From: Methanosarcinaceae archaeon
GTDB lineage: Archaea > Halobacteriota > Methanosarcinia > Methanosarcinales > Methanosarcinaceae
DNA length: 51,178 nucleotides
Direction: 5' to 3'
Assembly: GCA_030611265.1 (NCBI GenBank)
Contig: JAUWQD010000016.1
Coordinates: forward strand, 1 to 51,178
Of the stretch, positions 3,883 through 51,178 are shown in pieces. Every line of letters begins with the position of its first letter. Position 1 is the stretch's first letter. The notes beneath the pieces are model-generated. The model saw only the letters and a list, made by a program, of their open reading frames with translations. It had not been told where the DNA came from and made no database searches. The position numbers were made by a program, and so were the translations under genes.

Positions 3883-4017
3883 CAGTTGTTCATCCCCTCA
3901 GATGAGTTTACTGATGAAATGGAGGAAGTTGATTAAAAAGATTCACTTTTGTGATTTACCTGCGGAAAGTGCGGTGCATGTACAAGTTACTTTATCGGAA
4001 TCGAAGGGCGCAACATT

Positions 4018-22373: not shown

Positions 22374-23390
22374 ATGAAAAAAGCAATCCTGATACCGGTT
22401 GAAGATGCAGAATCTGCAAGGTCTGACTTACTCAAAAATGAATTACTTGATGGAAGTAGGAAGATCAAATTGATTAGCTTAAAAGGCGAAAAGTTCCTTG
22501 AGATCCCTGTCAAAACGGATGTGAAAGGATACACAGTCATTGAGCAGGATGCCCCTGAATACTATGAAAAATTGCAGTCATTAAAAGATCGACTAATGAG
22601 CGTTCTTTCATCAGATGAACTCAAGCATGTACCTTCCAGATGGCAGATTCTCGGCGATATTATCATCGTCAACATACCACGGAAAATCGACAATAGAAAG
22701 ATCGTTATTGCAAAAGCTCTTCTTGGTATGTATCCGCGATGCAAAAGCGTTATTCAGGATTTTGGGATCAAGGGTCAGTTCCGTGAACCAAACCGGAAGA
22801 CCATTATTGGAGATAAGGTCGAGACCATCAATAAGGAGCACCGGTGCCTCTTTAAAATGGATGTTACAAAAATAATGTACTCAAAGGGCAACCTGCCCGA
22901 ACGAAAGCGAATGAGCAAGGTTGGCAGCGGCGAGATTGTTGTAGATATGTTTGCAGGTATCGGGTATTTTTCAATCCCGATGGCAGTACATGCAAAACCC
23001 CGACAGGTCATTGCTATTGAACTCAATCCTGTGTCGTTTGGTTATTTGTGCGAGAATATCAAGTTAAACCATGTTGAGAACATCATTAAACCAATAAACG
23101 GTGACTGTGCAGAGGTTACACCACAGGACGTAGCTGATAGGGTGATAATGGGATATGTTGGGGTTACGCATCACTATCTGGAGCAGGGGATCCGTGCAAT
23201 AAAAAAGAGCGGCGGCGTTTTGCATTACCATGAAACAACGCCGGAGAGTCTGTTGTTTGACCGCCCCGTGACTCGAATTGAGGATGCTGCGCACACGGTG
23301 GGGCGCAGGGTTGAGATTCTGGACTGCCGCCGGATCAAGAAATATTCACCGGGTGTGTGGCATGTGGTTGTGGATGCTCACGTTCAGTGA
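22374..23390 (+). CDS. Trm5/Taw2-family (Met-10+-like) tRNA methyltransferase
   Basis: RWQILGDIIIVNIP N-terminal motif. SAM-binding VVDMFAGIGYFSIP. NPxxx-like ELNP. The 338-aa size fits Trm5 with an N-terminal domain. Confidence 0.7.
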   Translation: MKKAILIPVEDAESARSDLLKNELLDGSRKIKLISLKGEKFLEIPVKTDVKGYTVIEQDAPEYYEKLQSLKDRLMSVLSSDELKHVPSRWQILGDIIIVNIPRKIDNRKIVIAKALLGMYPRCKSVIQDFGIKGQFREPNRKTIIGDKVETINKEHRCLFKMDVTKIMYSKGNLPERKRMSKVGSGEIVVDMFAGIGYFSIPMAVHAKPRQVIAIELNPVSFGYLCENIKLNHVENIIKPINGDCAEVTPQDVADRVIMGYVGVTHHYLEQGIRAIKKSGGVLHYHETTPESLLFDRPVTRIEDAAHTVGRRVEILDCRRIKKYSPGVWHVVVDAHVQ

Positions 23391-26881: not shown

Positions 26882-26971
26882 GCTAAAAAATAGCATTAGA
26901 ACTTAATATATATTTGGAATAGTTCTCACTTGAAAAAAGAAATGGTATTTGTATAGCTGTGTCAAGATAGT

Positions 26972-27041
26972 TGCGTAAATGAGATTATTCTATCTGAAAC
27001 TAAACCAATACAACTGCCGTAGGCGGCGCATTCCCATGCCA
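26972..27041. repeat. conserved ~70-nt intergenic element copy A, with GC hairpin CCGCC-gta-GGCGG
   Basis: About 76% identical to 38246..38315 (TGCGTAAATGA.AT..TTCTATCTGAAACTAAA..CAAT....C.GCCGTAGGCGGC). Confidence 0.5.
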
Positions 27042-38207: not shown

Positions 38208-38245
38208 TTTAATAAATCTTATTTATATAGATATTGTAAAATGAC

Positions 38246-38315
38246 TGCGTAAATGAAATGGTTCTATCTGAAACTAAAAACAATGCGACCGCCGTAGGCG
38301 GCACGTTTCATGCAT
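38246..38315. repeat. conserved ~70-nt intergenic element copy B
   Basis: See copy A at 26972..27041. Contains the hairpin CCGCC-gta-GGCGG. Confidence 0.5.
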
Positions 38316-38422: not shown

Positions 38423-38644
38423 TCACAACAGTTTGTTAAAATCTTCTACAGAAATCTCTGCTTGCTTGAGAATCTTTCGTAAAGTCCCTTTCTTTACGGG
38501 ATTATGAAGGGGCACGGAAAACACTCTGTAGTCTTTTTTGAGTACAACATGGTCGCCTTTTGCCATTCTGGCTTCGAATCCTATTTTTACAAGGGCTTTT
38601 ATGACCTTCTTTCCAGAAACAACAGGCAATTTATTATTATTCAC
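38423..38644 (-). CDS. hicA: HicA toxin (type II toxin-antitoxin system)
   Basis: GKKVIKALVKIGF...KGDHVVLKK...KKGTLRKILKQAEIS matches the HicA/YcfA family. Confidence 0.75.
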   Translation of the reverse strand: MNNNKLPVVSGKKVIKALVKIGFEARMAKGDHVVLKKDYRVFSVPLHNPVKKGTLRKILKQAEISVEDFNKLL

Positions 38645-38849
38645 TTACTTCCACCGCTGAAACTTCGGCGAAATTTGCCAATTCTCTTGCTTCTTCATTT
38701 ATAACTTCAAGCACCAGCCCGATTGCTTCTTTTATATTTGCAAGAGCATCCTCTTTTGTATCGCCTTGACTAATCGCTCCGGGAAGTTCCAAGCATTGAA
38801 CTGAATAGCCGCCCTCTTCTTCCTCTTCAAGTATTACGGTGTATTTCAT
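38637..38849 (-). CDS. hicB: HicB antitoxin
   Basis: MKYTVILEEEEEGGYSVQCLELPGAISQGDTKEDALANIKEAI matches the HicB family. Overlaps hicA by 8 nt. Confidence 0.7.
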   Translation of the reverse strand: MKYTVILEEEEEGGYSVQCLELPGAISQGDTKEDALANIKEAIGLVLEVINEEARELANFAEVSAVEVSE

Positions 38850-38954: not shown

Positions 38955-39881
38955 TCACACCATCTCGCCAACATCCCACCCCAGATGCTCCTTAATAATG
39001 GTATAAGCCATCCCGGGTGGCACTGCGCCGACATCCGTAATTATCAGGTCAATGTATTCCGGTGGCGTAATATCGAAAGCAGGATTCCTGACATTCAGTT
39101 TTGGCAAACCTGCAAGTGTCTCCTTGTCAATAACCTCATCAATTGATCGCTCCTCAATTTCAATGAATTCTCCAAGTATTGTATTCGGACTGAATTTGTA
39201 AGTCTCGGCTGCTGTGAGGAAGTTCGTCCGCGCTTCGTGTGCTGCGAGTGCGAGTTGGGATGTCCCGATCTTGTTCACAAGCGCGCCGTTTACGGCAATA
39301 GCATCCGCACCGACTATAACGGTATCAACCTCTTTCATGCAGTACCGTGCGGCAGAGTCCACAATAAGTGTAGTTGGAATCCCATAGTCAAGAAGGTGTT
39401 TGCTGGTAAGAAGTCCCTGTCGTCTTGGTCGGGTCTCGGTAGCGATTACCGAGATGTCCTTGCCCTGGTCAAAAGCAGTTGTGATGACTGAAAGTGCTGC
39501 ATTGGAATTGCAGTGGGTCATAATCACATCACCGTCACGGATGCGTCTGGCACCGATCTCACCGATCTTTTGGAGTGCATCACCAGCCTGTTTGATGAAC
39601 CTCTCAGCGTTATTGATGATCTCTGCTCTTGCTTCTTCCACATCCGCAGAAGTGTATCGTGATGTCAGTCTGACCGCATTTGGAAGTGAAACTGCGGTCG
39701 GTCGGGTGTCCACAAGCAGTTTTGCGGCATTTTCGATCAGGCGGCTGAATTCCTTGATCGATCCCGCCTCAAGATTCTCTGCATAATCACGAAGTGCGAC
39801 CGCAGCGGCTGTTGCGATTCGACCTGCGCCGCGTATTTCCATGGTGTTGATCTTTTCTGCGGTTTCTTGTAACTGGTTCAT
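38955..39881 (-). CDS. eIF-2B alpha/beta/delta-family protein (ribose-1,5-bisphosphate isomerase / aIF-2BII-like)
   Basis: Family motifs IMTHCNS, GADAIAVNG and VGAVPPG. Confidence 0.7.
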   Translation of the reverse strand: MNQLQETAEKINTMEIRGAGRIATAAAVALRDYAENLEAGSIKEFSRLIENAAKLLVDTRPTAVSLPNAVRLTSRYTSADVEEARAEIINNAERFIKQAGDALQKIGEIGARRIRDGDVIMTHCNSNAALSVITTAFDQGKDISVIATETRPRRQGLLTSKHLLDYGIPTTLIVDSAARYCMKEVDTVIVGADAIAVNGALVNKIGTSQLALAAHEARTNFLTAAETYKFSPNTILGEFIEIEERSIDEVIDKETLAGLPKLNVRNPAFDITPPEYIDLIITDVGAVPPGMAYTIIKEHLGWDVGEMV

Positions 39882-40002
39882 GAATTATAGATTGGCGTTA
39901 GGGAATTTATAGATATCTTATTGGGCTGACAGATTGGCAGGAAAAATGTCAAGGGAAAGTATAAAATAATTTTAGAAATTAGTTAGTTTAAGGAGTGACC
40001 AT

Positions 40003-40911
40003 ATGAGAACCAATATTCTAATCGCACTACTAGTAAGTATCGCGGTATTGTCAAGTGGGTGTACACAGATTCCATCAGATGATACCAATGAAAAGACCAT
40101 TGTCATTGGGTCCAAGCAGTTTCAGGAATCATATATCCTGGCGCACATGACATCTCTTTTACTGGAGGACAGTGGGTACAAAACTGATGTAAAAGCAGGA
40201 CTTGGCGGAACATTTGTTAATTATGAAGCATTGAAGCAGGGCCAGATCAATGCTTATATCGAGTATACGGGAACCGCTTACAGCCAGATTCTCAAAAAAC
40301 CAGCACTGGATGTATGGGACCCAGAGGTGGTCTATGAAGAAGCCGAGAAGGGGTTACTTGAGCAGGATGGGGTTATCATAGTCAATAAATTGGGTTTTGA
40401 GGATGCTTATGCTATTGCAGTAAAAAAAGACTGGGCAGAAGCTAACAATGTATCAAAGATCAGTGACCTTGAGATGCATGCTATGGAAATGACCATTGGT
40501 ACAGACCCCGAATTCGCATCGCGCGAAGATGGTCTTCCGCAGATTGAAGAGGTGTATGGTTTTATATTTATGGATTACAAGCAGACTGTGGCCACCATCA
40601 TGTATGAAGCTATTAAAAATGATGAGGTGGATGCAATATCTGCTTACACCACTGATACCAGAAATGATTTGTTCGACCTGAAGATATTGAAGGATGACAA
40701 GAATGCTCTGCCTCCATATGATGCAATTCTCATTGTAACAGAAGAATTTGCATCTGAAAACCCGGACGTTATTACCGTACTCAACAAACTTGATGGCAAG
40801 ATCGATCAGGATACTATGAGAAGCATGAACTACCAATACGATGTGGATAAAAAGGATGCAAGGGACATTGCAAGGGAATTCCTTGTTGAGCAGGGATTGA
40901 TCGAGGGCTAG
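40003..40911 (+). CDS. glycine betaine/choline/carnitine ABC transporter substrate-binding lipoprotein (OpuCC/OpuBC-like)
   Basis: Signal peptide plus SSGC lipobox. [14 protein letters not shown] motif typical of OpuAC-fold binding proteins. Confidence 0.75.
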
Positions 40912-41063
40912 GGTTAAGGGCTAAATTCCCTCTTCATTTTCCACCTTTTACCGTTTGCCGTTTACACTCATTTCCAGAGTGAATTCACAAGTGCCTGTCC
41001 AGATATGTAGAACAGGTATAGGTTTTAGGCTTAGTGTACATTATATAGTGCAATAGTGGTGCA

Positions 41064-42209
41064 GTGAGAAGAGTGAAAACAACACAAACCCAAAGACTGT
41101 TTGATCGTATCGAGTCGATCCGGCTGGCGAATGTTACAAAAAAGTATGATGACCGTTTTGCAGTTGATGACCTGAACCTAGAGATCAAGGGTGGGGAATT
41201 ATTGATATTGATCGGTCAGAGCGGTTCCGGGAAAACAACGACCTTGAGGATGATCAACCGTTTAATAGAACTGGATGAGGGGCACATCACCATTAACGGT
41301 CAGGACATCATGGGTTTTGATCCTGTGAAACTGAGGCGGAATATCGGTTACGTTATCCAGAATATCGGTCTTTTTCCACACATGGATATTCATGATAACA
41401 TTGGGCTTGTCCCAAAGCTGGAAGGTTGGTCAGAGGGGGAAATATCAGGGAGGGTCGAGCATCTTTTGGATTTTGTCGCATTGCCGCATGAGACGTTCAT
41501 AAACAGATACCCAAGACAATTGAGCGGGGGTCAGCAGCAGAGGGTTGGACTTGCCAGGGCACTTGCTATGGATCCGCCACTTTTGTTGATGGACGAACCC
41601 TTTGGTGCGCTTGATCCCCTGTTGAGAAGACAACTTCAGGATGAATTCGTCAGGATAAAACATGAAATAGGAAGGACCATTGTTTTTGTTACCCACGATA
41701 TTGATGAGGCGTTCAAGCTTGGTGACCGTATTGGAATAATGGACGGCGGGAAGCTTGTTCAGGTTGGAACCCCGGAAGAGTTGATACTTGCGCCGGAAAA
41801 TGAATTGGTGGCAAGTATTGTGGATGCCGATAAGAAATTCAAGCATATGGATACTCTCAGGGTAAAGGATATGCTGTCTCATCTTGATGATAAATACATA
41901 TTTGAATCCGGGATGGGGGTGGACCAGGCTCTGGATAGGATGGCAGTGAACAATGTGGAGATCGGGATCGTGTGCGATGGGTCGGGACTTGCAGGACAGG
42001 TTGAGATGGCAGACCTGCTGCGATCAAGGGATGAGGGTAAAACACTTGAAGATATTGCAGAGTCATCAATTGTGTTCTCACCCCATGATTCTGTTGCTAT
42101 GGCATTGGGGGAATTAAAAGATAGGGGGCGGTCTGTGGCAATTGTTATGGAAAATGAGCGTCCTTTCGGACTTTTCTTTTCTGATGAAGTGCTTTTGAAA
42201 CTCATATAG
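41064..42209 (+). CDS. osmoprotectant ABC transporter ATP-binding protein with tandem CBS domains (OpuCA-like)
   Basis: Walker A GQSGSGKTT. Signature LSGGQQQRV. C-terminal CBS pair. GTG start. Confidence 0.8.
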   Translation: MRRVKTTQTQRLFDRIESIRLANVTKKYDDRFAVDDLNLEIKGGELLILIGQSGSGKTTTLRMINRLIELDEGHITINGQDIMGFDPVKLRRNIGYVIQNIGLFPHMDIHDNIGLVPKLEGWSEGEISGRVEHLLDFVALPHETFINRYPRQLSGGQQQRVGLARALAMDPPLLLMDEPFGALDPLLRRQLQDEFVRIKHEIGRTIVFVTHDIDEAFKLGDRIGIMDGGKLVQVGTPEELILAPENELVASIVDADKKFKHMDTLRVKDMLSHLDDKYIFESGMGVDQALDRMAVNNVEIGIVCDGSGLAGQVEMADLLRSRDEGKTLEDIAESSIVFSPHDSVAMALGELKDRGRSVAIVMENERPFGLFFSDEVLLKLI

Positions 42210-42266
42210 GTTGATGTAATTTTTATTTTAAAATTTACAATATTATCGAAATTCAAGGTGGTTTAA

Positions 42267-42911
42267 GTGGTTGCGATACTGTACAATATTATGGATGTCT
42301 GGGATACGCACCTGTTAACATTGCGGACGTTCGAGCATCTGTATATGTTTAGTATTGCACTGTTCATAGCCACGATCATCGGTATCAGTCTGGGGATATT
42401 TATTTATTCCCGGCCCGGACTTGCGAATCCTGTTTTGAACATACTCAATATTGTTGAAACAATTCCTGACATTGCACTGCTGGTACTGTTGCTTCCTTTT
42501 TTTGGACTTGGTGCAGGGCCCACCATTGTTGCATCGATCCTCTACTCCATACTTCCGATCGCAAGGAACACGTACACCGGTTTGAAGGATGTGGATCATG
42601 AATATATCTATATTGCAGAGGGAATTGGCCTGTCACCAAAAGAAATATTGTATAGGGTACGGATCCCGATGTCATTGCCGCTTATCGCAGGGGGTGTCAG
42701 GATTGCACTTGTGTTTACTATGGGTGTGGTCACTCTGGGCGGTTTGATTGCAGCGGGGGGTCTTGGGACTGCACTTCAGACAGGTATCTATCTTTATGAG
42801 ATCGATACAATTCTGGTTGCCGGAATATGGACTGGAATTCTGGCAGTCATCCTTGACGGGTTTGCGGGTATTGCTGAGAAAAAGATCACAGCGAGGTTTG
42901 GGTCATGGTAA
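42267..42911 (+). CDS. osmoprotectant ABC transporter permease (OpuCB-like)
   Basis: Six TM helices. EAA-like motif region. GTG start. Confidence 0.75.
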   Translation: MVAILYNIMDVWDTHLLTLRTFEHLYMFSIALFIATIIGISLGIFIYSRPGLANPVLNILNIVETIPDIALLVLLLPFFGLGAGPTIVASILYSILPIARNTYTGLKDVDHEYIYIAEGIGLSPKEILYRVRIPMSLPLIAGGVRIALVFTMGVVTLGGLIAAGGLGTALQTGIYLYEIDTILVAGIWTGILAVILDGFAGIAEKKITARFGSW

Positions 42912-43516
42912 CGCTTGACGTAATTGCAGCAGCCACTGTTGAGCATCTGGTTCTTGTATATACCACCTTATTTTTGAGCATTGCTATTGCGATCCCTCTT
43001 GCTTTCGCTTCCCTCTATAGCGAAAGACTGGCATTTGTGATTATGAGATTTGCCAATCTGGCTCAGGCAGTACCCAGTTTTGCAGTTGTTGCGATCGTGG
43101 TACCCCTGATCGGGATCGGTTTCACTCCTGCTGTGATAGCGATCATGCTGCGGGCTTTGTTGCCGATCGTGAAGAATACGTACATTGGATTGTCGAGCAT
43201 TGACCCCCAGTTGATAGATTATGCAAAAGGCATCGGCCTGACGGACTGGCAGATAAACCGTCATATAAGATTGCCAAACGCTTACCCTCCAATGTTCGCA
43301 GGAATTAAATTTGCAGCCATCCTGGCTAACAGTATTGCAGTACTGACTGCAATTATCGGAAGCGGAGGCTTGGGTGAACTGGTCTTTGAAGGACTTATCA
43401 GTTTTAGTACGGAAAGGCTTTTGGCAGGGGCATTGCCGGCTATTGGGCTTGCTTTGTTTTTGGATATGTCATTTACAGCATTGGAGAAGAGGTTGACTTC
43501 GGGGCAGCCACGATAG
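42905..43516 (+). CDS. osmoprotectant ABC transporter permease (OpuCD-like)
   Basis: Paralogous permease overlapping the upstream gene. Its last ~250 nt recur twice downstream. Confidence 0.75.
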   Translation: MVTLDVIAAATVEHLVLVYTTLFLSIAIAIPLAFASLYSERLAFVIMRFANLAQAVPSFAVVAIVVPLIGIGFTPAVIAIMLRALLPIVKNTYIGLSSIDPQLIDYAKGIGLTDWQINRHIRLPNAYPPMFAGIKFAAILANSIAVLTAIIGSGGLGELVFEGLISFSTERLLAGALPAIGLALFLDMSFTALEKRLTSGQPR

Positions 43517-43527
43517 ATGATATTGCT

Positions 43528-43824
43528 TTAAATCTCATTTTTATTTGTAAGCAATTCAATATAATCTTCTTGAGACATTGGACAATTAATTAAATCCAGT
43601 AATTCATTTTTTGAATTCAATTTTAGTTGTTTCTGCATTGCAGATAGTAAACTATCACTATATTCATTCGAACCATGGCTTATCTTTGTTTTAATGTGAG
43701 TCCTCTGATCGTTATAATAAAACCAGAAATAAGTATGATGAGTTTCCTCAACTTCAAATCCTTTATTTTGAAGAGAAGAAGCGATTTTCCTAGTTTTGAC
43801 CTTCAACTGAAACACCTTTAACAA
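43528..43824 (-). CDS. HicA/YcfA-like domain protein (tentative)
   Basis: KIASSLQNKGFEVEETHHTYF...HIKTKISHGSNE...LLSAMQKQLKL resembles the HicA pattern. First gene-distal member of a three-gene minus-strand cassette. Confidence 0.3.
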   Translation of the reverse strand: MLKVFQLKVKTRKIASSLQNKGFEVEETHHTYFWFYYNDQRTHIKTKISHGSNEYSDSLLSAMQKQLKLNSKNELLDLINCPMSQEDYIELLTNKNEI

Positions 43825-44356
43825 AACTAAGAATATTATATTTTATTTGTCTTGCTTTTTCAGTGAGGTTATCATCAGATTCTTTTGAATAGACATCCCA
43901 CATGACAAAAAATTCTTCCTCAAAATCCTCTTTTAGTTGTTCAATATCAGAAGCTACCAAAAAAATATCCAATTCTTCATAAAAACATTCCCATAAATCG
44001 CCAACAAAATTCAAAGTAATTTCAATTGGGTGATTAAGTTGAATTTTATGATCTCCCCATTTGATTCTATCAAATATGTGCGAACTATTATGAGCATGCA
44101 CATCTTTTTTCGATAATTTCAAAAAAGAAGTGATACTGTCATCTGTATATCTATATACAGAGCCTAAAGCCGGTGCAATTTTCGAGATTGCATTAATGTC
44201 AATGACTTCATGATGGTAAAGATTTTGAGTACGTGTATTCAACACTTTTAAACTTGATTCATTTACTGAAAACATGGATTGATGAGCTTTTTGAATCGTT
44301 GAAGATTCATATCCATTTGTAGGACTCAATAATTGAAATGAACTGGTACTATTCAC
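43790..44356 (-). CDS. hypothetical protein
   Basis: 188-aa ORF in the AT-rich cassette. Confidence 0.4.
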   Translation of the reverse strand: MNSTSSFQLLSPTNGYESSTIQKAHQSMFSVNESSLKVLNTRTQNLYHHEVIDINAISKIAPALGSVYRYTDDSITSFLKLSKKDVHAHNSSHIFDRIKWGDHKIQLNHPIEITLNFVGDLWECFYEELDIFLVASDIEQLKEDFEEEFFVMWDVYSKESDDNLTEKARQIKYNILSFVKGVSVEGQN

Positions 44357-44945
44357 TGATTAATCCCTCTAAAATATTTTCAGATTCTTTCATTGCATCG
44401 CTGTGTCTCTCAATAATGTTAGAAATTTGTTTTGTTTCATCTAATTGGCAATGGAAATTGAAATCTGCTTTCATTTCGTCGCTAGTATCTGGTTCAAGGA
44501 TTAACCGTACAATCATTTCATCAAACTTATATTTTATGATGCCACCTAATTGATAATCTTTATGAAATAACGACTCCAACTTTTCGATATTATGGCCATA
44601 TATATTTTCAAGCGTACTTTTTCCCATTTTAATATTGTACACAAAATTAAATCCAATGCTGGTGTATGGTGTTTCAGGAAGTGCATCAACATAAGATAAT
44701 ATCATTTGTGGCAACAAATCTACTTTATTTGGAATGTCAACTTTTGCATTTAATTGGAGCCGATCGGGATCGGCAAAAAAAGAGAAGTTCTCAGTTTCAA
44801 CAACCGAAAATGCAGGTGTATGAGTAAAAGAAACTACTTCATCCTCAATTATTCCTTTTTGGGATAGCCATTCCTTAGAAACAATTGATGGATTATGATT
44901 TTTAGCTAAAATAACAATATTTGCCCCTATTAAAGATATATCCAT
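44349..44945 (-). CDS. hypothetical protein
   Basis: 198-aa ORF in the AT-rich cassette. 8-nt overlap with the downstream gene. Confidence 0.45.
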   Translation of the reverse strand: MDISLIGANIVILAKNHNPSIVSKEWLSQKGIIEDEVVSFTHTPAFSVVETENFSFFADPDRLQLNAKVDIPNKVDLLPQMILSYVDALPETPYTSIGFNFVYNIKMGKSTLENIYGHNIEKLESLFHKDYQLGGIIKYKFDEMIVRLILEPDTSDEMKADFNFHCQLDETKQISNIIERHSDAMKESENILEGLISE

Positions 44946-45061
44946 AAATTCACCTCAAATTCAAAAATTGGTTGTTGCCAAGTCATATAATCTATAGCAT
45001 TTAATCATTTTCATATTATTTCAATTTGTGTATAGTTCCAAATTCACATATTTCTTGAATT

Positions 45062-45313
45062 GCCACGCCAAACGCTTACTCCCCAATGTTTGCAAAAATA
45101 AAATTTGCAGCCATCCTGACTAACAGTATTGCAGTACTGACTGCAATTATCGGAAGCGGAGGATTGGGTGCACTGGTCTTTGAAGGACTTATCAGTTTTA
45201 GCACAGAAAAGGTCATGGCAGGGGCACTGCCGGCGATTGGGTTTGCCTTGTTTTTGGATATGTCATTTACGGCACTGGAGAAGAGGTTGACTTCGAGGCA
45301 GGGTGGGGAGTGA
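45062..45313 (+). repeat. duplicated 3' fragment (~250 nt) of the opuCD-like permease gene; attachment-site-like repeat, copy 2
   Basis: About 90% DNA identity to 43268..43516. Encodes MFAKIKFAAILTNSIAVLTAIIGSGGLGALVFEGLISFSTEK...LEKRLTSRQGGE. No upstream gene body. Confidence 0.75.
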
Positions 45314-45336
45314 TAATTAGACGGTGGTTCTGGCTT

Positions 45337-46131
45337 TCACCTTTTTACGATTATTGAAACATTGGGAAAAGTACGGTCTATACCTTCTTTAATCTCTTGA
45401 AAATTCCTGTCGGTAAAAGAAGGCTCAAATAATACACAAATAATATTTGTATAATACTTTGAATATTTTAGACATTTTGTAGTCAACGTATTTAGTGCTT
45501 GAGAGTCTGTGGGTCCTTTTACCTCAATTGCGATATGATCTATTATTATATCTGGTCTTGATGCACCAGTTTGTATCTCAACTTTTGCACTTGGAAAATG
45601 GGCTTTTAACCATCCTTGAAGTTCTGTATGATAACCAAATTCATTTTTATATCTTCTTGAAGGTTTAAAATTTTCTATAGATTCGGACACTTTGTAGAGT
45701 AAAGATTCCTTCTTTTTTTCTTCTTCATCACGCCTTTTCCACTGTTCTATTTCTTCAAGTGACCCCCACTTTTCATTTCCAAATCTATCTGAAAATTTAA
45801 CTAAACCCTTTGCTGTTTGTTCTTCTATGTATTTTCTTCTTTCGAAATCTTTTTGTTCTTCTTCATATTGTTTTTTAAAATCTCTCTGTTTTTTTTCATG
45901 TTGTCTTTTTCTTATCCAGATTGCTAACAATATAATTGCAAATAAAATAACAATGATTATTATAACTGTGTTTTGATTTATCCAATTAATAATTTGATTT
46001 CCTACATAAATAATCCAATCAATAATAGGTTTAATTATGTGCTTCCAAACAAAATAAATACATCCAATTATGATAATAATTAAAGCTGCTAAAGGATTAA
46101 TTTCATCATCGTATCTCTTTCTTCTTGCCAT
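45337..46131 (-). CDS. membrane-anchored protein with coiled-coil linker and C-terminal PD-(D/E)xK nuclease-like domain
   Basis: Two N-terminal TM helices. KR/E-rich coiled coil. C-terminal domain with the ordered motifs E (GYHTELQ), D (RPDIIID) and ExK (IAIEVKG). Confidence 0.5.
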   Translation of the reverse strand: MARRKRYDDEINPLAALIIIIIGCIYFVWKHIIKPIIDWIIYVGNQIINWINQNTVIIIIVILFAIILLAIWIRKRQHEKKQRDFKKQYEEEQKDFERRKYIEEQTAKGLVKFSDRFGNEKWGSLEEIEQWKRRDEEEKKKESLLYKVSESIENFKPSRRYKNEFGYHTELQGWLKAHFPSAKVEIQTGASRPDIIIDHIAIEVKGPTDSQALNTLTTKCLKYSKYYTNIICVLFEPSFTDRNFQEIKEGIDRTFPNVSIIVKR

Positions 46132-46261
46132 AATTGAAAACCCATTAAATATATTGTTAATAAGATATTATAATTTTACTATAGATATTTTTGCATTTGA
46201 TAGGCTTTGTGTATAAAGTCAAATTATGCTCCACTTTATGGGCAAAGTTCTACACTACGGG

Positions 46262-46403
46262 AACTGATCTTTGAATGACTTATCAGTTTTAGTACGGAAA
46301 GGCTTCTCGCAGGTGCACTGCCGGCTATTGGGCTTGCCCTCTTTTTGGATATGTCGTTTACGGCACTGGAGAAGAGGTTGACTTCGGGGCAGGGTGGGGA
46401 ATG
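46262..46403 (+). repeat. duplicated 3' fragment (~140 nt) of the opuCD-like permease gene; copy 3
   Basis: Matches 43378..43516 and 45172..45313. Ends ...gacttcggggcagggtggggaatga, like copy 2. Confidence 0.7.
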
Positions 46404-46643
46404 ATGATTATGGGGGTTGTATTTTTAATCAAAGGTCTACAATTATTTGATGGGTAAGGGCGGAGTGTAATTCCAAAATGCTATACAGGGGTGGTACAAT
46501 TTGTATGGGGTATACTGTGACTGCAAACGATGGAATTTGTGTGCATCCTTGTAAAATAAAAGATCAAAATAACAATTATGGAATTAAAAATGGGCACGGT
46601 ATAACCATATGATGAGAACTTTTTAAAAGTTGTATGAAAATTT

Positions 46644-48089
46644 TTAATTATTTTTAATATTTTCTAATAAGTTCAATAATTGCTTCCGATAATATTTATC
46701 CTTTTCATAATCTAAGGCTTTTTTAATATATACTTTAGCGTTAACGAAATCCTCTTTGTTAATCAACAAGCGACTATAACTTGTACTTACCATAGTAATC
46801 CCTTTTTGATCATTCATTGTTTCTAACAATTCCAGACTATTTTTAAAAGCGTTTTCAGCTTCTCCCCATCGTGAACGTTTCTTGCTTAAAAGATTTCCAA
46901 GACTGTGATAAACCTGAGCTTTGTGATGCAATTTATCCTTTCCCAATTCCAGACTATTTTTAAAAGCGTTTTCAGCCTCTTCCCATCGTGAACGTTCCTT
47001 GCTTAAAAGAATTCCAAAACTGTGATAAACTTGAGCCTGTCCAAAAAAATCATCTACTTCTCTTAATCTCAGGCTTTGTTTATAAGCTTCTTCAGCCTCT
47101 TCCCATCGTGAACGTTTCTTGCTCAAAAGATTTCCAAGACTGTGATAAACCTGAGCTTGTCCAAAAGGATTATTTAATTTTTTGAGCAATTCCAGACTAT
47201 TTTTAAAAGCGTTTTCAGCCTCTCCCCATCGTGAACGTTCCTTGCTCAAAAGATTTCCAAGACTGTGATAAACCTGAGCTTGTCCAAAAGGATTATCTAT
47301 CTTTTCTTCTAATTCCAGGCTTTCTTTAAAAGCTTTTTCAGCTTTTTCCCAGTGCGATCGTTTCTTACTCCAAATTAGACCTACCAAATGAGCCGAAATA
47401 GCTGCATCTTTCATACTTTCGTCTGATTCACTCCTTTTTTTCCAAACGAGTGCTAAAAAAGAAATAGCTTTACCAAAATTGTTATTTTTATAGGCATATA
47501 AACCACGCATGAAATAAACATTACTTAGTTCTTCAGTCAGTGGTTTATCGGAAGGAGAAGATTTAGGAAATTTTTCTTCTATATATAAATCAATAACTCT
47601 TTCGGTTTCTTGCAGATTATATCTATTAGCCGTATCAAAAATTTGCCTGAATTTTTGAATTCCGTCTTTTTTGCTTTCTTCCATACCAATTGATAAACGT
47701 GCTATTTGAAGATCGAAATCCTCTATATCCAATGTGGGAACATTTTCCAATTCTTTCCTATGTCCTTTCATTGTTGCTAATACTTTTTGGCGAATCTCAA
47801 TTCCTGAACCATTCAGTTCTTCTAATGCATATTCTCTTATATCATCGTCAAATACCCAAGTCTTTATTGTCCTATCATGCCATATCGGAAAAGATTGAAG
47901 TTCTTCAATAAGTTTTTGAGAATTTCCATTTGCTTTTCCTGTATTATGTAATATTTTTTCTGCTAAATGATTGTTTAATAGATTTGGTACAGAAAGGACA
48001 TACAAAGATTCTCTTAATTCAGGCGAAAGTACATTTAACATATAGCCTATATCGAATTTATTTGTCATTTCAACTGACACTTGCACCAA
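46644..48089 (-). CDS. TPR-repeat protein with six near-identical ~40-aa repeats
   Basis: Repeats FGQAQVYHSLGNLLSKKRSRWEEAENAFKNSLEL. Distinct N-terminal roughly 250 aa. Overlaps the upstream gene by 20 nt. Confidence 0.7.
   Translation of the reverse strand: MVQVSVEMTNKFDIGYMLNVLSPELRESLYVLSVPNLLNNHLAEKILHNTGKANGNSQKLIEELQSFPIWHDRTIKTWVFDDDIREYALEELNGSGIEIRQKVLATMKGHRKELENVPTLDIEDFDLQIARLSIGMEESKKDGIQKFRQIFDTANRYNLQETERVIDLYIEEKFPKSSPSDKPLTEELSNVYFMRGLYAYKNNNFGKAISFLALVWKKRSESDESMKDAAISAHLVGLIWSKKRSHWEKAEKAFKESLELEEKIDNPFGQAQVYHSLGNLLSKERSRWGEAENAFKNSLELLKKLNNPFGQAQVYHSLGNLLSKKRSRWEEAEEAYKQSLRLREVDDFFGQAQVYHSFGILLSKERSRWEEAENAFKNSLELGKDKLHHKAQVYHSLGNLLSKKRSRWGEAENAFKNSLELLETMNDQKGITMVSTSYSRLLINKEDFVNAKVYIKKALDYEKDKYYRKQLLNLLENIKNN
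46829..47330. repeat. tandem ~120-bp DNA repeats inside the TPR gene
   Basis: Repeated blocks such as tctccccatcgtgaacgtt(c/t)cttgct(c/t)aaaagatttccaagactgtgataaacctgagc, at least four times. Confidence 0.6.
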
Positions 48090-48930
48090 ACTCCCTTATG
48101 TAAGGCAACAATTTTCTCTTGAATTCAGAATATCGAACTCCATCATTTATTGGATCTATCATACCTTTACAGAAATGGATATGATTTTGATTTGAACTTT
48201 CCATATATATTTTAGTTTCTTCAACAATATCATTAAATTCAAGGTATTCAGGAATATTTTGATCATAATCACTAAAATCTTTGAATTCATCGGCATTTCC
48301 TTGATTTAGAATACATATTTTTATATTTTCTAATAATGCCATTCTTCTACAAAAAAAATGTAAAAACCACTGATTAAAATCATTACTCAAACCATTAAAA
48401 CTTTTTTTCCCAAAACCAATTATAAATAAAAACGACATATCTCCGTTTAAGCTTTTAATGTCATTTATAAATTCAGTGAAAATGTAATCTATTTGTCTTT
48501 CTTTGGAAACATCTGGTGGCATTGATTCATTTAGAGATCCATATATATTTACGCTCTGACTAATACCTCCAAAGTCGATTGATCCTTCAGATGATGCTTG
48601 ATTTCCAATTTCCTGTATAATAGGTAATGGTAATTTATCATATTTTGCTTCTATGTCACGGAGAGAGTTATAAAATTTTTTAAATGTCTCCCCTTCACCT
48701 AAATTAATTGTTAATTCTTCCAGAAAAGTATATTTTTTGATTTGAACATCTGAGTCATAATGCACCCATCCGATTGAATAATCTTGAGCATTATTACTTA
48801 TCCATTCCCGAACATCCTTCAATTCCTGGGAATCAGAAATACCAAGAGCTGAAAATTTTTCATCACCTTCAAGCCATTTTTGAATGGATATTTTATAATA
48901 TCCCCGATCACACCAGAGAATTTCAGCCAT
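48070..48930 (-). CDS. hypothetical protein (middle gene of three-gene cassette operon)
   Basis: 286-aa ORF. Contains EGSIDFGGISQSVNI, the same motif as the C-terminus of the upstream small membrane protein. Confidence 0.55.
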   Translation of the reverse strand: MAEILWCDRGYYKISIQKWLEGDEKFSALGISDSQELKDVREWISNNAQDYSIGWVHYDSDVQIKKYTFLEELTINLGEGETFKKFYNSLRDIEAKYDKLPLPIIQEIGNQASSEGSIDFGGISQSVNIYGSLNESMPPDVSKERQIDYIFTEFINDIKSLNGDMSFLFIIGFGKKSFNGLSNDFNQWFLHFFCRRMALLENIKICILNQGNADEFKDFSDYDQNIPEYLEFNDIVEETKIYMESSNQNHIHFCKGMIDPINDGVRYSEFKRKLLPYIREFGASVS

Positions 48931-49226
48931 TATTTCTCACATTTATCTAAATTAAGGTCAACATTTTGGGTTATGCCTTTAAATGATATATTTCCTTTTG
49001 CTGTTGCCCCATTTCCGATAGATTGACTAATTGATTTTTTTTGTTCAAAATCATTCTTTTTTTTGTTTATTACTAAATATTTCAATATAATGCCAGCAAT
49101 AATTGTAGATATTATTACAATTAGTCCCACTTTTAATTCCAAGTTTTTAATTATAAGAATCGTATATGCAACAATCATTAAACTATATCCAACATATTCT
49201 ATTGTTTTCATATTATTTTCCTTCAT
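48930..49226 (-). CDS. small membrane protein (two TM helices) with C-terminal GNISFKGITQNVDLN motif
   Basis: 98-aa ORF whose start overlaps the stop of the next gene. Two hydrophobic helices. Confidence 0.5.
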   Translation of the reverse strand: MKENNMKTIEYVGYSLMIVAYTILIIKNLELKVGLIVIISTIIAGIILKYLVINKKKNDFEQKKSISQSIGNGATAKGNISFKGITQNVDLNLDKCEK

Positions 49227-49508
49227 AAATACCTAGGACAATGTGGCAGTGTTTCCCCTATAATTTATTAAAATTTAAAAAGATCACTTCACCCGATTAA
49301 TAATAATTTATATTATTTTGTCATCTTATATATAACTTATTTAAAAATTGAGTTTGATTATAAAGAAATCCTTATGCACCCGTTATCTGCCCCGGATTTT
49401 AGCGAAGCGGAGTCCAAGGTAGTGACGAAATATACAATATGTTCCATAAACCAACAAAAAATCCCACAAACACAGCTTTTATCACCCAAAAAACCAACAT
49501 AACCCGAT

Positions 49509-49640
49509 ATGAACCTCCGAGACCAGATGAACGGCACAATCCCTGCTCCACTTTTACACCTCACCCCAAAACGTTTCGATATCATCGGGGATGTGGCTGT
49601 CATCTCGATCCCGCCTGAACTTGATGATTTCAAGTTAAGA
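49509..49640 (+). pseudogene. 5' fragment of a Trm5/Taw2-family methyltransferase gene
   Basis: Encodes ...KRFDIIGDVAVISIPPELDDFK, homologous to RWQILGDIIIVNIPRKIDNRK in the intact gene at 22374..23390. Homology stops after about 40 residues. Confidence 0.4.
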
Positions 49641-49762
49641 TATATCATTTTTCGTAATAATATATGGTTTTGTGCAGTTTTTTCATTGTACTGCACAAAA
49701 ATAACACATTTTGTTCAATACAGTGCATAAACATTTAAACTATTGTGCAGTATACAATATTT

Positions 49763-51022
49763 ATGAGACAAAGTATACAACGACAAAAACTGGAAAAGGA
49801 ACGGGTAGCAGGTTCTGATCTTGTTAAAAGAGATGTTGCCGAGAACATAGAATCATATTTGCGCCATGACATCATAAAAGTTGTAACCGGGATAAGACGA
49901 AGTGGCAAATCCATATTTTGCTTTATGGTGCTTGATGATGTTGATTTTGGATATGTCAATTTCGATGAAAAGGAAATTGCAGAGCTGGATAATTATGACG
50001 AGATATTGAGATATGTTCAGGAATTTTATGGCGATGTTGAATTTCTTTTCCTTGATGAAATCCAGAATCTTAATAACTGGGAACTGTGGGTCAACAGCCT
50101 GCACAGAAGAGGGTACAATCTGCTCATCACAGGCTCCAATGCAAAATTACTCAGCCGTGAGCTGGCAACACATTTGACAGGCAGACACATATCTGTGGAA
50201 CTTTTTCCATTTTCATTCAAGGAATATCTGGATGCAGTTGGGTTTGACATCAAAGATGAATATATCGAAGAAGAAATTGGCATTATTCTCAATTATCTCA
50301 AAAAATATATGGAAATAGGTGGTTTTCCGGAAGTTGTAGTAAAAGGATACGATCACAAATACCTCCAGACGCTTTTCGATAGCATCATTCTCAAAGACGT
50401 TGTCCAGCGGCACAATGTGCGATATGCAGATGACCTGTATAATCTTGCCAAATTCCTTATGTCATCTTTTTCAAACGAAATATCCTACACTAAATTGAAA
50501 AATACACTGAACTTTCGGAGTGTAAATACTGTTCAGAGCTATGTCAGATACCTTGAAGACACGTATCTCATATTCCATCTGGACATGTTTTCATTCAAAC
50601 AAAGAGAGCAGATTAAATCTCCAAAAAAGATGTATGTCATAGATACCGGAATGGCAAATGCCGTATCATTCAAATTTTCGGAGGACATCGGAAATATGAT
50701 GGAGAATACCGTTGCAGTGGAACTCTTAAGACAAAAATCGAACTCAATTTCACGTATTGAGGTATATTACTGGAAAGATACACAGCACCGCGAAATTGAT
50801 TTTGTCATCAAGGAAGGACCGGACATATCACAATTGATACAAGTATGTTATAATATTAATGATCTAAAGACAAGAGAACGGGAATTGAGATCGCTTGTCG
50901 GGGCAGCAAAAGAATTGAATTGCAATAATCTTCTTGTAATTACATGGGATTATGATAATACAGAAGAATACAATGGCAACAGTATCCGATATGTGCCGCT
51001 TTGGAAATGGTTGCAAAAATAG
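49763..51022 (+). CDS. COG1373-type AAA ATPase (AAA_14 plus DUF4143-like C-terminal domain)
   Basis: Walker A VVTGIRRSGKS. Walker B FLFLDEIQ. C-terminal domain of the kind found in archaeal COG1373 proteins. Start taken at the internal ATG. Confidence 0.65.
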   Translation: MRQSIQRQKLEKERVAGSDLVKRDVAENIESYLRHDIIKVVTGIRRSGKSIFCFMVLDDVDFGYVNFDEKEIAELDNYDEILRYVQEFYGDVEFLFLDEIQNLNNWELWVNSLHRRGYNLLITGSNAKLLSRELATHLTGRHISVELFPFSFKEYLDAVGFDIKDEYIEEEIGIILNYLKKYMEIGGFPEVVVKGYDHKYLQTLFDSIILKDVVQRHNVRYADDLYNLAKFLMSSFSNEISYTKLKNTLNFRSVNTVQSYVRYLEDTYLIFHLDMFSFKQREQIKSPKKMYVIDTGMANAVSFKFSEDIGNMMENTVAVELLRQKSNSISRIEVYYWKDTQHREIDFVIKEGPDISQLIQVCYNINDLKTRERELRSLVGAAKELNCNNLLVITWDYDNTEEYNGNSIRYVPLWKWLQK

Positions 51023-51024
51023 AT

Positions 51025-51178
51025 GTTTCTATATGCAACGCACTTTCCGCAGGTAAATCTCAAAAGTGAATCTTTTTCTTAAATAAAAAATGATGCCGCA
51101 TGAGTACGGTTTTTAAAATATGCTCACAACTGGTTTAGAATGATATATATCAATTTTCTACCGAAGTTTGCAAATTAT
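51025..51178 (+). mobile_element. probable end of another IS copy (shared 45-nt subterminal segment) running off the window
   Basis: 51033..51077 (ATGCAACGCACTTTCCGCAGGTAAATCTCAAAAGTGAATCTTTTT) matches the reverse complement of 3936..3980, beside the truncated transposase, with 2 mismatches in 45. Confidence 0.35.

What the first reader, a model, noticed from the sequence alone, without database searches (positions are those of the whole stretch)
43268..46403. Tandem array of AT-rich foreign cassettes delimited by three copies of the 3' end of the opuCD-like permease gene
The three copies are as follows.

- Copy 1 (43268-43516): the real gene end. It finishes ...gacttcggggcagccacgatag.
- Copy 2 (45062-45313): about 250 nt. 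It encodes the last 75 residues, with a few substitutions, and ends ...cagggtggggagtga.
- Copy 3 (46262-46403): about 140 nt. It ends ...cagggtggggaatga.

The intervening segments are visibly more AT-rich than the opuC operon, and every gene in them is on the opposite strand. Segment 43517-45061 carries three minus-strand genes, and segment 45314-46261 carries a PD-(D/E)xK membrane protein. This is the classic footprint of site-specific integration into the 3' end of a protein-coding gene, with the element supplying a replacement 3' end. It appears to have been repeated at least twice, so that each cassette keeps an attachment-site-like copy. The altered last 12 nt of copy 1 relative to copies 2 and 3 fit replacement of the original terminus by the most recent element. 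No integrase is present in the window, so the elements may be decayed or mobilised in trans. An integrase may also lie beyond 51178.
Basis: seen in the sequence. Interest (0 to 1): 0.8.

Follow-up and report, generated by a model that had tools for sequence, protein, structure and literature searches.

The report
Stacked gene-end fossils around archaeal island
Next to an osmoprotectant-transporter operon in an uncultured methane-oxidising archaeon (ANME-3 relative) lies a variable island of AT-rich foreign genes. The displaced ends of both neighbouring core genes pile up inside it like fossils, most likely through homologous plus illegitimate recombination rather than an integrase.

Summary
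The intact permease gene (42905-43516) is followed by two partial 3' copies (45067-45313 and 46261-46403). These separate AT-rich, minus-strand cassettes of 29-31% GC; the rest of the window is 41.5% GC.

The integrase interpretation is not supported, for five reasons:
- Four related assemblies carry the same island with other cassettes and more permease fragments, starting at six different positions.
- They also carry a mirror-image set of 5' fragments of the downstream core gene (TYW2-like). One such fragment lies in the window at 49422-49634.
- One relative shows the whole island, from the left flank to the intact TYW2 gene, and it has no integrase.
- Other genera have the empty site, with the permease directly followed by TYW2.
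- Several junctions sit at 2-9 nt microhomologies.

The fragments differ from the live genes mainly at synonymous sites (pN/pS 0.03-0.27). They are therefore ends of once-functional diverged alleles, not decaying local duplicates.

The best explanation is repeated, integrase-free "displacement". Incoming DNA from relatives is anchored by homology in a flanking gene. It supplies a new gene end plus a cassette and shunts the old end inward. This mechanism is known from bacterial Rhs and T6SS loci. Here it occurs in an archaeon, at housekeeping genes, on both flanks.

The parts
38955..39881 (-). IF-2B-family gene. It is the conserved left neighbour. In three related assemblies it abuts the first permease fragment directly, because the opuC-like operon is missing there.
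   Evidence: Pfam PF01008. tblastn and blastn synteny with L039, L051 and L082.
39918..39941 (+). Permease-like remnant or recombination scar (ttattgggctgacagattggcag) in the IF-2B/opuAC intergenic region. It lies exactly where the relatives' permease fragments are joined to this intergenic region.
   Evidence: The 18-mer from permease 43235-43252 has only one other match with <=3 mismatches in the window, at 39923-39940, with 0 expected by chance.
40003..43516 (+). opuC-like ABC transporter operon: OpuAC binding protein 40003-40911, ATPase 41064-42209, permease 42267-42911 and permease 42905-43516. The last gene is the anchor gene on the left flank of the island.
   Evidence: Pfam PF04069, PF00005 and PF00528.
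43273..43516 (+). Copy 1: the 3' end of the intact permease gene. Its last codons (...TSGQPR*, about 43505-43516) form the 'type A' terminus, which always travels with cassette 1.
   Evidence: The linkage of the type A terminus to cassette 1 is seen 5 times in 4 assemblies.
43517..45066 (-). Cassette 1 (GC 0.30): three overlapping ORFs at 43528-43824, 43790-44356 and 44349-44945. This is a conserved three-gene module of unknown function found in other archaea at unrelated, toxin-antitoxin/defence-rich sites.
   Evidence: There are no Pfam, NCBIfam or PADLOC hits. There is a weak PHROG 'toxin' hit for the 98-aa ORF. The same three-gene module occurs in M. lacustris and in other contigs. The AF2 model of ORF198 has pLDDT 90 but no informative PDB match.
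45067..45348 (+). Copy 2: a displaced permease 3' fragment (aa 118-end, '...TSRQGGE*', type B terminus, stop at 45313), plus about 25-35 nt of type-B downstream sequence. Its 5' edge is a secondary deletion junction at an ATTGCCA microhomology.
   Evidence: The same junction is present in L082. L051 has a longer version starting at aa 70, preceded by a methylase-gene remnant.
45337..46260 (-). Cassette 2 (GC 0.29): a 264-aa protein (45337-46131) with an N-terminal membrane/coiled-coil region and a C-terminal nuclease-like domain, plus its upstream region.
   Evidence: PHROG nuclease family hit, E=1.6e-7, residues 133-236. The PD...ExK motif is visible in the translation. The single-sequence AF2 model was too poor to test the fold.
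46261..46531 (+). Copy 3: a displaced permease 3' fragment (aa 153-end, '...TSGQGGE*', stop at 46403), plus about 130 nt of conserved type-B downstream sequence. This downstream stretch is probably the old intergenic region.
   Evidence: The downstream stretch aligns with L039 10400-10537 and L051 2960-3098.
46532..49421 (-). Central cassette (GC 0.31): an operon of a 98-aa ORF (48930-49226), a 286-aa ORF (48070-48930) and a 481-aa TPR protein (46644-48089).
   Evidence: Pfam TPR_12 and related families, and the PADLOC TPR model. The other two ORFs have no hits.
49422..49634 (+). Displaced 5' fragment of the right-flank core gene, a TYW2-like tRNA methyltransferase. It comprises about 87 nt of upstream region plus codons 1-42, and is the mirror image of the permease fragments.
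   Evidence: tblastn with the TYW2 N-terminus gives 97.6% identity. Pfam PF25133 on the longer fragment. The intact gene is seen in L086 and L087. pN/pS is 0.03-0.05 against intact genes.
49635..51026 (+). Cassette carrying an AAA_14/DUF4143 ATPase (49745-51022), which matches candidate defence family PDC-S01. In relatives it is bracketed by two TYW2 5' fragments.
   Evidence: Pfam and PADLOC, E=3e-116. Context in L051, L082/L086 and L087.
51027..51077 (+). IS-like terminal repeat, the inverted match of 3935-3985 next to the DUF4277 transposase genes. It marks where the window departs from its near-identical relative, and probably explains why the contig ends here.
   Evidence: Inverted repeat of 51 nt at 92%. 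DUF4277 ORFs. Divergence from L087 after 51038. The contig ends about 14 nt after the window.

Best explanation
The region is the left half of a hypervariable, defence-type gene island. The island sits between two core genes of a Ca. Methanovorans (ANME-3)-like archaeon: the last permease gene of an opuC-like operon and a TYW2-like tRNA-modification gene.

Proposed mechanism (inferred):
- The island grows by integrase-free 'sequential displacement'.
- DNA from a diverged relative carries part of a flanking core gene plus a new cassette. It pairs by homology within that core gene.
- It is then fixed in one of two ways. One is an illegitimate, microhomology-mediated join at its other end (homology-facilitated illegitimate recombination). 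The other is a single crossover of a circularised fragment (Campbell-type).
- The result is an intact hybrid core gene with a donor-supplied end, followed by the new cassette, followed by the resident's old gene end, now a truncated fossil pushed inward.
- Repetition at both flanks gives nested permease 3' fragments on the left and nested TYW2 5' fragments on the right. The oldest material lies in the middle.
- The fragments then serve as homology for later cassette loss, exchange and internal deletions.

Shown directly:
- the anatomy of the island;
- the mirror-image fragments on both flanks;
- the variable fragment edges;
- the allelic origin of the fragments;
- the absence of an integrase;
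- the empty sites in other genera.

Inferred: the recombination pathway, and whether the incoming DNA was linear or circular.
For: 1. Empty sites. In Methanolobus WCC5 (L008) the permease is followed by TYW2 after 141 nt, and in L014 after 84 nt.

2. Recurrence with turnover. L039, L051, L082/L086 and L083 carry the same island with other cargo: Fic, Mrr_cat, DUF1828/1829 plus DUF6978, Dcm plus HATPase plus Vsr, RnlA-like plus RNase HII-like, and Abi_alpha. Each has 2-3 permease fragments.

3. Mirror image. TYW2 5' fragments of about 42, 52-57 and 95-99 codons each precede a cassette. The intact gene closes the island.

4. The complete island in L082/L086 has no integrase or transposase. The window has no integrase either.

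5. Fragment 5' edges fall at six different positions.

6. Microhomology at junctions:
- TATTGGGCT in L051/L082;
- TATTGG in L039;
- ATTGCCA at window copy 2;
- 2-3 nt at the L039 junction of TYW2 aa98 with permease aa159.

7. The fragments are ends of functional diverged alleles.
- Permease pN/pS is 0.06-0.27 at pS 0.2-0.35.
- Fragment-versus-fragment comparisons reject neutrality: L039_1 vs L039_2 P=4e-5, L039_2 vs L083 P=1.5e-9, window copy 2 vs copy 3 P=0.008.
- TYW2 fragments give pN/pS 0.03-0.12 over their aligned codons 1-42, and 0.33-0.39 where the comparison runs on into a diverged tail.

8. The donor supplies the gene end. The type A terminus is always linked to cassette 1, but it is joined to three different permease alleles. 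This implies crossovers at varying points.

9. L039 holds two copies of [fragment + type A + cassette 1] that are only 95.6% identical, which indicates separate acquisitions.

10. The cargo is AT-rich, while the fragments keep core-gene composition.

11. The same footprint and mechanism have been proposed for Rhs and T6SS loci (PMC2935791; PMC5361080).
Against: - No recombination event has been observed directly. Everything rests on metagenome assemblies and MAGs of an uncultured lineage.
- Only one island is seen complete, and it is not the window's own. An IS-like end cuts the window at 51027.
- An integrase acting in trans from elsewhere in the genome cannot be excluded.
- Parental sequences are known for only a few junctions. 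One junction (window copy 2) is not a clean microhomology product.
- Window copy 1 versus copy 2 alone does not reject the in-situ duplication expectation (P=0.11).
- HFIR and natural DNA uptake have not been demonstrated in these archaea (my knowledge).
Confidence: 0.65

Rival explanations
1. Site-specific integration. Small integrative elements carry an attP that mimics the permease 3' end. They insert one after another into the gene end, using a tyrosine or SSV-type integrase that has since been lost or acts in trans.
For: - The topology fits: intact gene, then cassette, then partial copy.
- The incoming DNA provides a replacement terminus.
- Empty sites exist.
- Tandem pile-ups with partial target copies are known for integrase elements such as tycheposons (10.1101/2020.12.28.424599).
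- The rest of the window's genome could not be inspected.
Against: - There is no integrase in the window, in the complete island of L082/L086, or in three other islands.
- Fragments are 72-390 nt long with six different 5' edges and no shared core.
- Nested TYW2 5' fragments would need a second, unrelated att specificity at the same locus.
- No terminal repeats bound the cassettes.
- No copy of the permease end was found in 2.9 million viral contigs or in the JGI metagenome contigs.
Confidence: 0.15
2. Ordinary in-situ tandem duplications of the permease end or of the whole island, followed by decay and differential loss.
For: - L039 has a junction of TYW2 aa98 with permease aa159. This is what a tandem duplication of the whole island would create.
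- Window copy 1 versus copy 2 (pN/pS 0.27) does not by itself reject the value expected for one neutral and one constrained branch (P=0.11).
Against: - Copies within one genome differ by 9-12%, mostly at synonymous sites. This holds even between two non-functional fragments: P=0.008 in the window and P=4e-5 in L039.
- The cassettes between copies are unrelated to each other and are AT-rich.
- The two cassette-1 copies in L039 are 95.6% identical. One is closer to another lineage (96.6% to L051) than the other is (92.4%).
Confidence: 0.07
3. Metagenome assembly artefact: allelic island variants from co-existing strains were concatenated through the shared permease sequence.
For: - The window is a SPAdes contig from a metagenome.
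- Several strains of this lineage co-occur in related samples, for example L087 at 99.3% identity.
Against: - Cassette-to-fragment junctions share at most a few bases with the permease, so a graph walk could not create them.
- The cassette 1 / copy 2 junction is reproduced in an independent NCBI MAG at 96% identity (L082).
- The aa-70 junction is reproduced in three separate assemblies (L039, L051, L083).
- Only the cassette 2 / copy 3 junction is unique to this contig.
Confidence: 0.03

Closest known systems
C-terminal displacement arrays at Rhs, CDI and T6SS effector loci (Jackson et al. 2009, PMC2935791; Kirchberger et al. 2017, PMC5361080)
   Same: - An intact gene is followed by a string of its own 3' fragments of variable length.
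- Each fragment carries different, compositionally distinct downstream cargo.
- No dedicated recombinase is present.
- New modules shunt older ones downstream.
- The proposed mechanism is homologous recombination via a circular intermediate, or homology-facilitated illegitimate recombination.
   Different: - The anchor genes here are housekeeping genes (an ABC permease and a tRNA-modification enzyme), not polymorphic toxins.
- Only the last few codons change, so the protein itself does not diversify.
- The cargo consists of unrelated defence-type or unknown operons rather than toxin tips and immunity genes.
- Displacement occurs at both flanks, 3' ends on one side and 5' ends on the other.
- The host is an archaeon.
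Minimal mobile elements and integrase-free recombination hotspots between conserved genes (Saunders & Snyder 2002, cited in PMC1538595)
   Same: - Different whole-gene cassettes sit between the same pair of conserved genes in related strains.
- No mobility genes are present.
- Exchange is attributed to homologous recombination in the flanks.
   Different: As I recall it, the classic description involves clean replacement. Here, insertions are additive and leave nested partial copies of both flanking genes.
Tycheposon-type tandem arrays at tRNA genes in Prochlorococcus islands (10.1101/2020.12.28.424599)
   Same: - New arrivals push older elements deeper into the island.
- Partial copies of the target gene are scattered through the island.
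   Different: Those elements carry tyrosine recombinases, target tRNA genes and have defined att sites. None of these features is found here.
Genomic islands integrated into the 3' ends of protein-coding genes by site-specific recombinases
   Same: - The gene end is duplicated, and the incoming DNA restores the reading frame.
- Empty sites exist in relatives.
   Different: - No recombinase is present.
- The repeats are long and of variable length.
- The opposite flank is also duplicated.

Membership tests
Integrase-mediated integrative element targeting a gene 3' end | A tyrosine or serine recombinase gene lies in or beside the element(s). | tested here: not met
   The window has none. The complete island L082/L086 has none. 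L039, L051 and L083 have none. A recombinase acting in trans from elsewhere in the genome could not be checked.
Integrase-mediated integrative element targeting a gene 3' end | Direct repeats (attL/attR) have a fixed extent and share one crossover core. | tested here: not met
   There are six different 5' edges and lengths of 72-390 nt. The type A end is joined to three permease alleles.
Integrase-mediated integrative element targeting a gene 3' end | The element supplies a replacement gene end, and unoccupied sites exist in relatives. | tested here: met
   The type A terminus is always linked to cassette 1. Empty sites are seen in L008 and L014.
Integrase-mediated integrative element targeting a gene 3' end | A free or circular form, or a viral or plasmid copy, carries the attP mimic. 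| tested here: inconclusive
   A degenerate 41-nt pattern gave 0 hits in IMG/VR and 0 in the JGI metagenome contigs. These collections may simply lack this lineage.
Displacement array (Rhs/T6SS-type, recombinase-free) | An intact gene is followed by a string of its own 3' fragments of variable length, each with different cargo of distinct composition. | tested here: met
   The same pattern holds in four related assemblies.
Displacement array (Rhs/T6SS-type, recombinase-free) | The fragments come from incoming or displaced functional alleles rather than from local decay. | tested here: met
   pN/pS is 0.03-0.27 at pS 0.15-0.35. Neutrality is rejected for fragment-versus-fragment pairs.
Displacement array (Rhs/T6SS-type, recombinase-free) | Illegitimate junctions occur at short microhomologies (the HFIR signature). 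| tested here: inconclusive
   Four junctions with known parents show 2-9 nt microhomology. One of them is imperfect. Several of them are deletions rather than primary insertion joints. The parents of the other junctions are unknown.
Displacement array (Rhs/T6SS-type, recombinase-free) | The anchor gene is a polymorphic toxin and the cargo is toxin tips plus immunity genes. | tested here: not met
   The anchors are a BPD_transp_1 permease and TYW2. The cargo is unrelated operons.
Displacement array (Rhs/T6SS-type, recombinase-free) | There is a circular or linear recombination intermediate. | not testable with these tools
   This needs reads, PCR or genetics.
Minimal mobile element / integrase-free hotspot | Different cassettes sit between the same conserved flanks in related strains, without mobility genes. 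| tested here: met
   The window, L039, L051, L082/L086, L083 and L087 share the flanks but differ in cassettes.
Integron | An IntI integrase is present and attC hairpin sites bound each cassette. | tested here: not met
   There is no integrase. No inverted repeats lie at the cassette borders. There is no Rfam match.
In-situ tandem duplication | The copies are paralogous and decay neutrally, and the intervening DNA is of host composition. | tested here: not met

The most novel reading that the evidence does not exclude
The gene-end fragments may not be passive fossils. They could be the working parts of a cassette-exchange platform, an 'integron without an integrase'. In this reading, portable homology arms taken from two core genes let ANME-3 populations dock, stack, shuffle and shed defence cassettes from both sides of one locus. 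This might be helped by an unrecognised recombination activity, either acting in trans or encoded by one of the conserved unknown cassettes. It could be a main route of gene gain in a lineage for which no mobile elements have yet been described.
Probability: 0.15. Interest if true: 0.7.

Novelty: new variant of a known kind. Interest (0 to 1): 0.45.

Why it matters
ANME-3 (Ca. Methanovorans) archaea are uncultured and environmentally important. They are thought to have acquired key traits by horizontal transfer. [quoted passage not shown]

This locus gives a readable, layered record of repeated gene acquisition from diverged relatives without any integrase. That suggests homology-anchored recombination is an active route of gene gain in these archaea.

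It also extends the 'displacement' footprint in three ways:
- from bacterial polymorphic-toxin loci to ordinary housekeeping genes;
- to both flanks of an island;
- to Archaea.

Practically, it is a warning: partial copies of a gene end that flank AT-rich cassettes should not automatically be read as att sites.

Tried and rejected
- Reading past the window. The contig ends about 14 nt after the window. An exact-protein look-up of the ATPase failed. The continuation was inferred from L087 (99.3% identity) and L086 instead.
- Scans for the permease-end pattern in IMG/VR and in JGI metagenome contigs found 0 hits.
- The C-termini of permease orthologues in other genera are too variable to decide which terminus, A or B, is ancestral.
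- The Rfam scan of 39800-51178 gave only a sub-threshold miRNA hit, which is chance.
- I first read the 40-aa remnant upstream of the long permease fragment in L039, L051 and L083 as an hsdS tail. Pfam, NCBIfam and PDB gave nothing. tblastn matched the end of an 'N-6 DNA methylase' gene (E=6e-5), so I call it a methylase-gene remnant only.
- Function of cassette 1. The AF2 model of ORF198 is confident, but PDB matches are weak (TM <=0.41; AdoMetDC-like, TBP-like), so no function is assigned. My impression that the 98-aa ORF is HicA-like rests only on a weak PHROG 'toxin' hit (E=0.001).
- ORF264. The single-sequence AF2 model was too poor to test the PD-(D/E)xK fold. The PDB sequence search gave nothing.
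- The look-up of P0014 failed.
- The search with the TYW2 N-terminus returned only short fragments.
- Integron, casposon and transposon readings were rejected. There are no terminal inverted repeats, no target-site duplications and no recombinase at the cassettes.

Full report
**Observation**

The window is the last 51 kb of a metagenomic contig, ENA ERZ4220937 NODE_32, which ends about 14 nt after the window. The second permease gene of an opuC-like operon (42905-43516) is intact. Two partial copies of its 3' end follow:
- 45067-45313: 91% nucleotide identity, aa 118-201, tblastn E=5.8e-39.
- 46261-46403: aa 153-201, E=3e-20.

Copies 2 and 3 end ...QGGE*, whereas the live gene ends ...QPR*.

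The DNA between and after the copies is 29-31% GC. The operon is 44.6% GC, the rest of the window 41.5%, and the permease fragments themselves 48-50%. All cassette ORFs are on the minus strand.

**What the cassettes are**

- Cassette 1 (43517-45066) holds three overlapping ORFs with no Pfam, NCBIfam or PADLOC match.
  - The 198-aa protein belongs to a widespread archaeal family. It always occurs with the same two partners, for example in Methanosarcina lacustris among HEPN/MNT, STAND-ATPase and IS605 genes.
  - A confident AF2 model (pLDDT 90) found no informative structural relative.
- Cassette 2 encodes a membrane/coiled-coil protein with a nuclease-like C-terminal domain (PHROG nuclease, E=1.6e-7).
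- After copy 3 comes a three-gene TPR operon.
- A DUF4143 ATPase follows that matches the candidate defence family PDC-S01 (E=3e-116).

None of these is a recombinase.

**Surroundings and relatives**

A genome-collection scan with the permease returned about 50 archaeal loci. In Methanolobus WCC5 and in another Methanosarcinaceae MAG, the permease is followed within 141 and 84 nt by a TYW2-like gene (PF25133). This is the empty site.

Four independent assemblies close to the window carry the island instead. They show 86-94% identity to the window in the flanking core genes, and one is Ca. Methanovorans/ANME-3 HMMV. They are L039, L051, L082/L086 and L083.

They share some modules with the window:
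- Cassette 1 is 91-97% identical.
- The ATPase cassette is 98% identical.

Otherwise they hold different cargo: Fic, an Mrr-like nuclease, DUF1828/1829 plus DUF6978, a Dcm-HATPase-Vsr cluster, RnlA-like plus RNase HII-like genes, and Abi_alpha.

Each has two or three permease 3' fragments. The starts fall at window-equivalent positions 43120, 43232, 43273, 43379, 43388 and 43441.

**The decisive extra feature**

The 5' end of the downstream core gene is repeated in the same nested way. The window has one such fragment at 49422-49634, comprising the upstream region plus codons 1-42. Relatives have fragments of about 42, 52-57 and 95-99 codons, each followed by a cassette. The intact 259-aa TYW2 gene closes the island.

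In L082/L086 the whole island can be read in this order:
1. IF-2B gene
2. permease fragment
3. cassette 1
4. permease fragment
5. Dcm/HATPase/Vsr cluster
6. TYW2 fragment
7. ATPase
8. TYW2 fragment
9. Fic
10. intact TYW2, then tRNA deacylase and FtsZ

It contains no integrase or transposase.

The window has no integrase either. It has only two DUF4277 IS-type transposase ORFs, 40 kb away. Directly after the ATPase gene the window carries an IS-like end (51027-51077). This is the inverted match of 3935-3985 beside those transposase genes. At this point the window departs from a 99.3%-identical contig (L087) that continues TYW2 fragment, Fic, intact TYW2.

**Origin of the fragments**

Nei-Gojobori counts show that permease fragments differ from the live gene and from each other mainly at synonymous sites: pN/pS is 0.06-0.27 at pS 0.2-0.35.

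Even pairs of non-functional fragments reject neutrality:
- Window copy 2 vs copy 3: P=0.008.
- L039_1 vs L039_2: P=4e-5.
- L039_2 vs L083: P=1.5e-9.

TYW2 fragments behave the same way over their aligned codons 1-42, with pN/pS 0.03-0.12. The ratio rises to 0.33-0.39 where the comparison runs on into a diverged tail.

The divergence therefore accumulated while these sequences were parts of working genes in lineages as far apart as the genomes compared here. The fragments are displaced or imported allele ends, not decaying local duplicates.

Three further observations fit this:
- The ...QPR* terminus is linked to cassette 1 in all five instances.
- That terminus is attached to three different permease alleles.
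- L039 carries two copies of this module that are only 95.6% identical. One resembles the L051 lineage more than the other does.

**Junctions**

Where both parents are known, junctions lie at short microhomologies:
- TATTGGGCT: IF-2B intergenic region joined to permease 43441, in L051/L082.
- TATTGG: the L039 left junction.
- ATTGCCA: the 5' edge of window copy 2. This edge is derivable from the L051 arrangement by deleting a methylase-gene remnant and permease codons 70-117.
- 2-3 nt: TYW2 codon 98 joined to permease codon 159, in L039.

In L039, L051 and L082 the opuC operon itself is absent. The window's own IF-2B/opuAC intergenic region holds a permease-like 18-24-mer exactly at that junction, with 0 expected by chance.

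**Mechanism**

The simplest account is integrase-free sequential displacement.
- DNA from a relative carries part of a flanking core gene plus a cassette.
- It recombines by homology in that gene.
- It is completed either by an illegitimate join or, if circular, by a single crossover.
- The product is a hybrid intact gene, then the new cassette, then the truncated old end.

Acting at both flanks, this builds the nested, mirror-image stratigraphy observed. The fragments then mediate deletions and exchanges. The pathway itself is inferred, and I could not separate the linear from the circular route.

Rivals:
- Site-specific integration. The topology and the replacement end fit. The missing integrase, the variable edges and the TYW2 fragments argue against it.
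- In-situ tandem duplication. The substitution pattern and the unrelated AT-rich cargo contradict it.
- Assembly artefact. The junctions are reproduced in independent assemblies.

**Comparison with known systems**

The footprint matches 'C-terminal displacement' at Rhs loci:
- variable-length core fragments;
- AT-rich tips;
- a proposed mechanism of homologous recombination through a circle (PMC2935791).

It also matches sequential displacement at V. cholerae T6SS clusters, which was attributed to homology-facilitated illegitimate recombination (PMC5361080).

It differs in four ways:
- The anchors are housekeeping genes.
- The cargo is unrelated operons.
- Both flanks take part.
- The host is an archaeon.

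It resembles minimal mobile elements in lacking mobility genes, and tycheposon arrays in its push-inward stacking. However, it lacks the tRNA target and the integrase of tycheposons.

**Verdict**

This is a new variant of a known kind and is moderately interesting. It offers a concrete, testable route of gene gain in ANME-3, for which mobile elements remain undescribed (PMC12180501).

Noticed in passing
window 51027-51077 and 3935-3985; ORFs 1220-2929(+) and 2947-3882(-): A 51-nt inverted match (92%) links the sequence just after the ATPase gene to the end of an IS region near the window start. That IS region encodes two DUF4277 (IS-type transposase N-terminal) proteins. An IS or solo IS end has probably inserted into the island, and this would explain why the contig breaks here.
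   Followed up: partly
window 39918-39941; L039 7420-7450; L051 800-830; L082 about 8357: Three related assemblies lack the whole opuC-like operon. Their IF-2B intergenic region is joined straight to a permease fragment. The window's own intergenic region carries a permease-like 18-24-mer at that spot. The operon may have been lost by microhomology deletion, or re-acquired in the window lineage. The direction is unresolved.
   Followed up: partly
L039 9856-9999, L051 2439-2573, L083 about 3195-3331 (minus strand): A conserved remnant of about 135 nt encodes the last 40 aa of an N-6 DNA methylase-like gene (tblastn E=6e-5). It sits directly upstream of the longest permease fragment. This is debris of an earlier restriction-modification cassette.
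   Followed up: partly
L039 14160-14200: TYW2 codon 98 is fused directly to permease codon 159, followed by a second, 95.6%-identical copy of the cassette 1 start. This is either a whole-island tandem junction or the joint of a circularised fragment. The contig ends soon after.
   Followed up: partly
window 43528-44945; L090 8001-9412 (M. lacustris CP009515); L091; L092: Cassette 1 is a conserved three-gene module (about 198, 187 and 92-98 aa) of unknown function. It is found in many archaea, and some bacteria, at unrelated sites rich in toxin-antitoxin and defence genes. It is a candidate new defence or toxin-antitoxin system.
   Followed up: partly
window 38423-38849: A HicA/HicB pair lies between the MacB-type ABC transporter genes and IF-2B. 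The region is rearranged or partly absent in L039. A 68-nt intergenic repeat (26937-27004 and 38211-38278, 76%) lies at its edge.
   Followed up: no
window 46808-47374 and 5363-5992: There are in-frame tandem repeats inside two genes: 117-123-nt TPR units in the island's TPR protein, and 210-nt PEGA-domain units in the 745-aa surface protein.
   Followed up: no
L022 9900-10528 (ANME-2 MAG B4-03): OpuAC residues 1-50 lie immediately before permease residue 30. This is an internal collapse of the operon in another ANME lineage.
   Followed up: no
window 22374-23390: This is a second, distantly related Trm5/TYW2-family gene (22% identity to the island-flanking TYW2 N-terminus). It is not involved in the island.
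   Followed up: no
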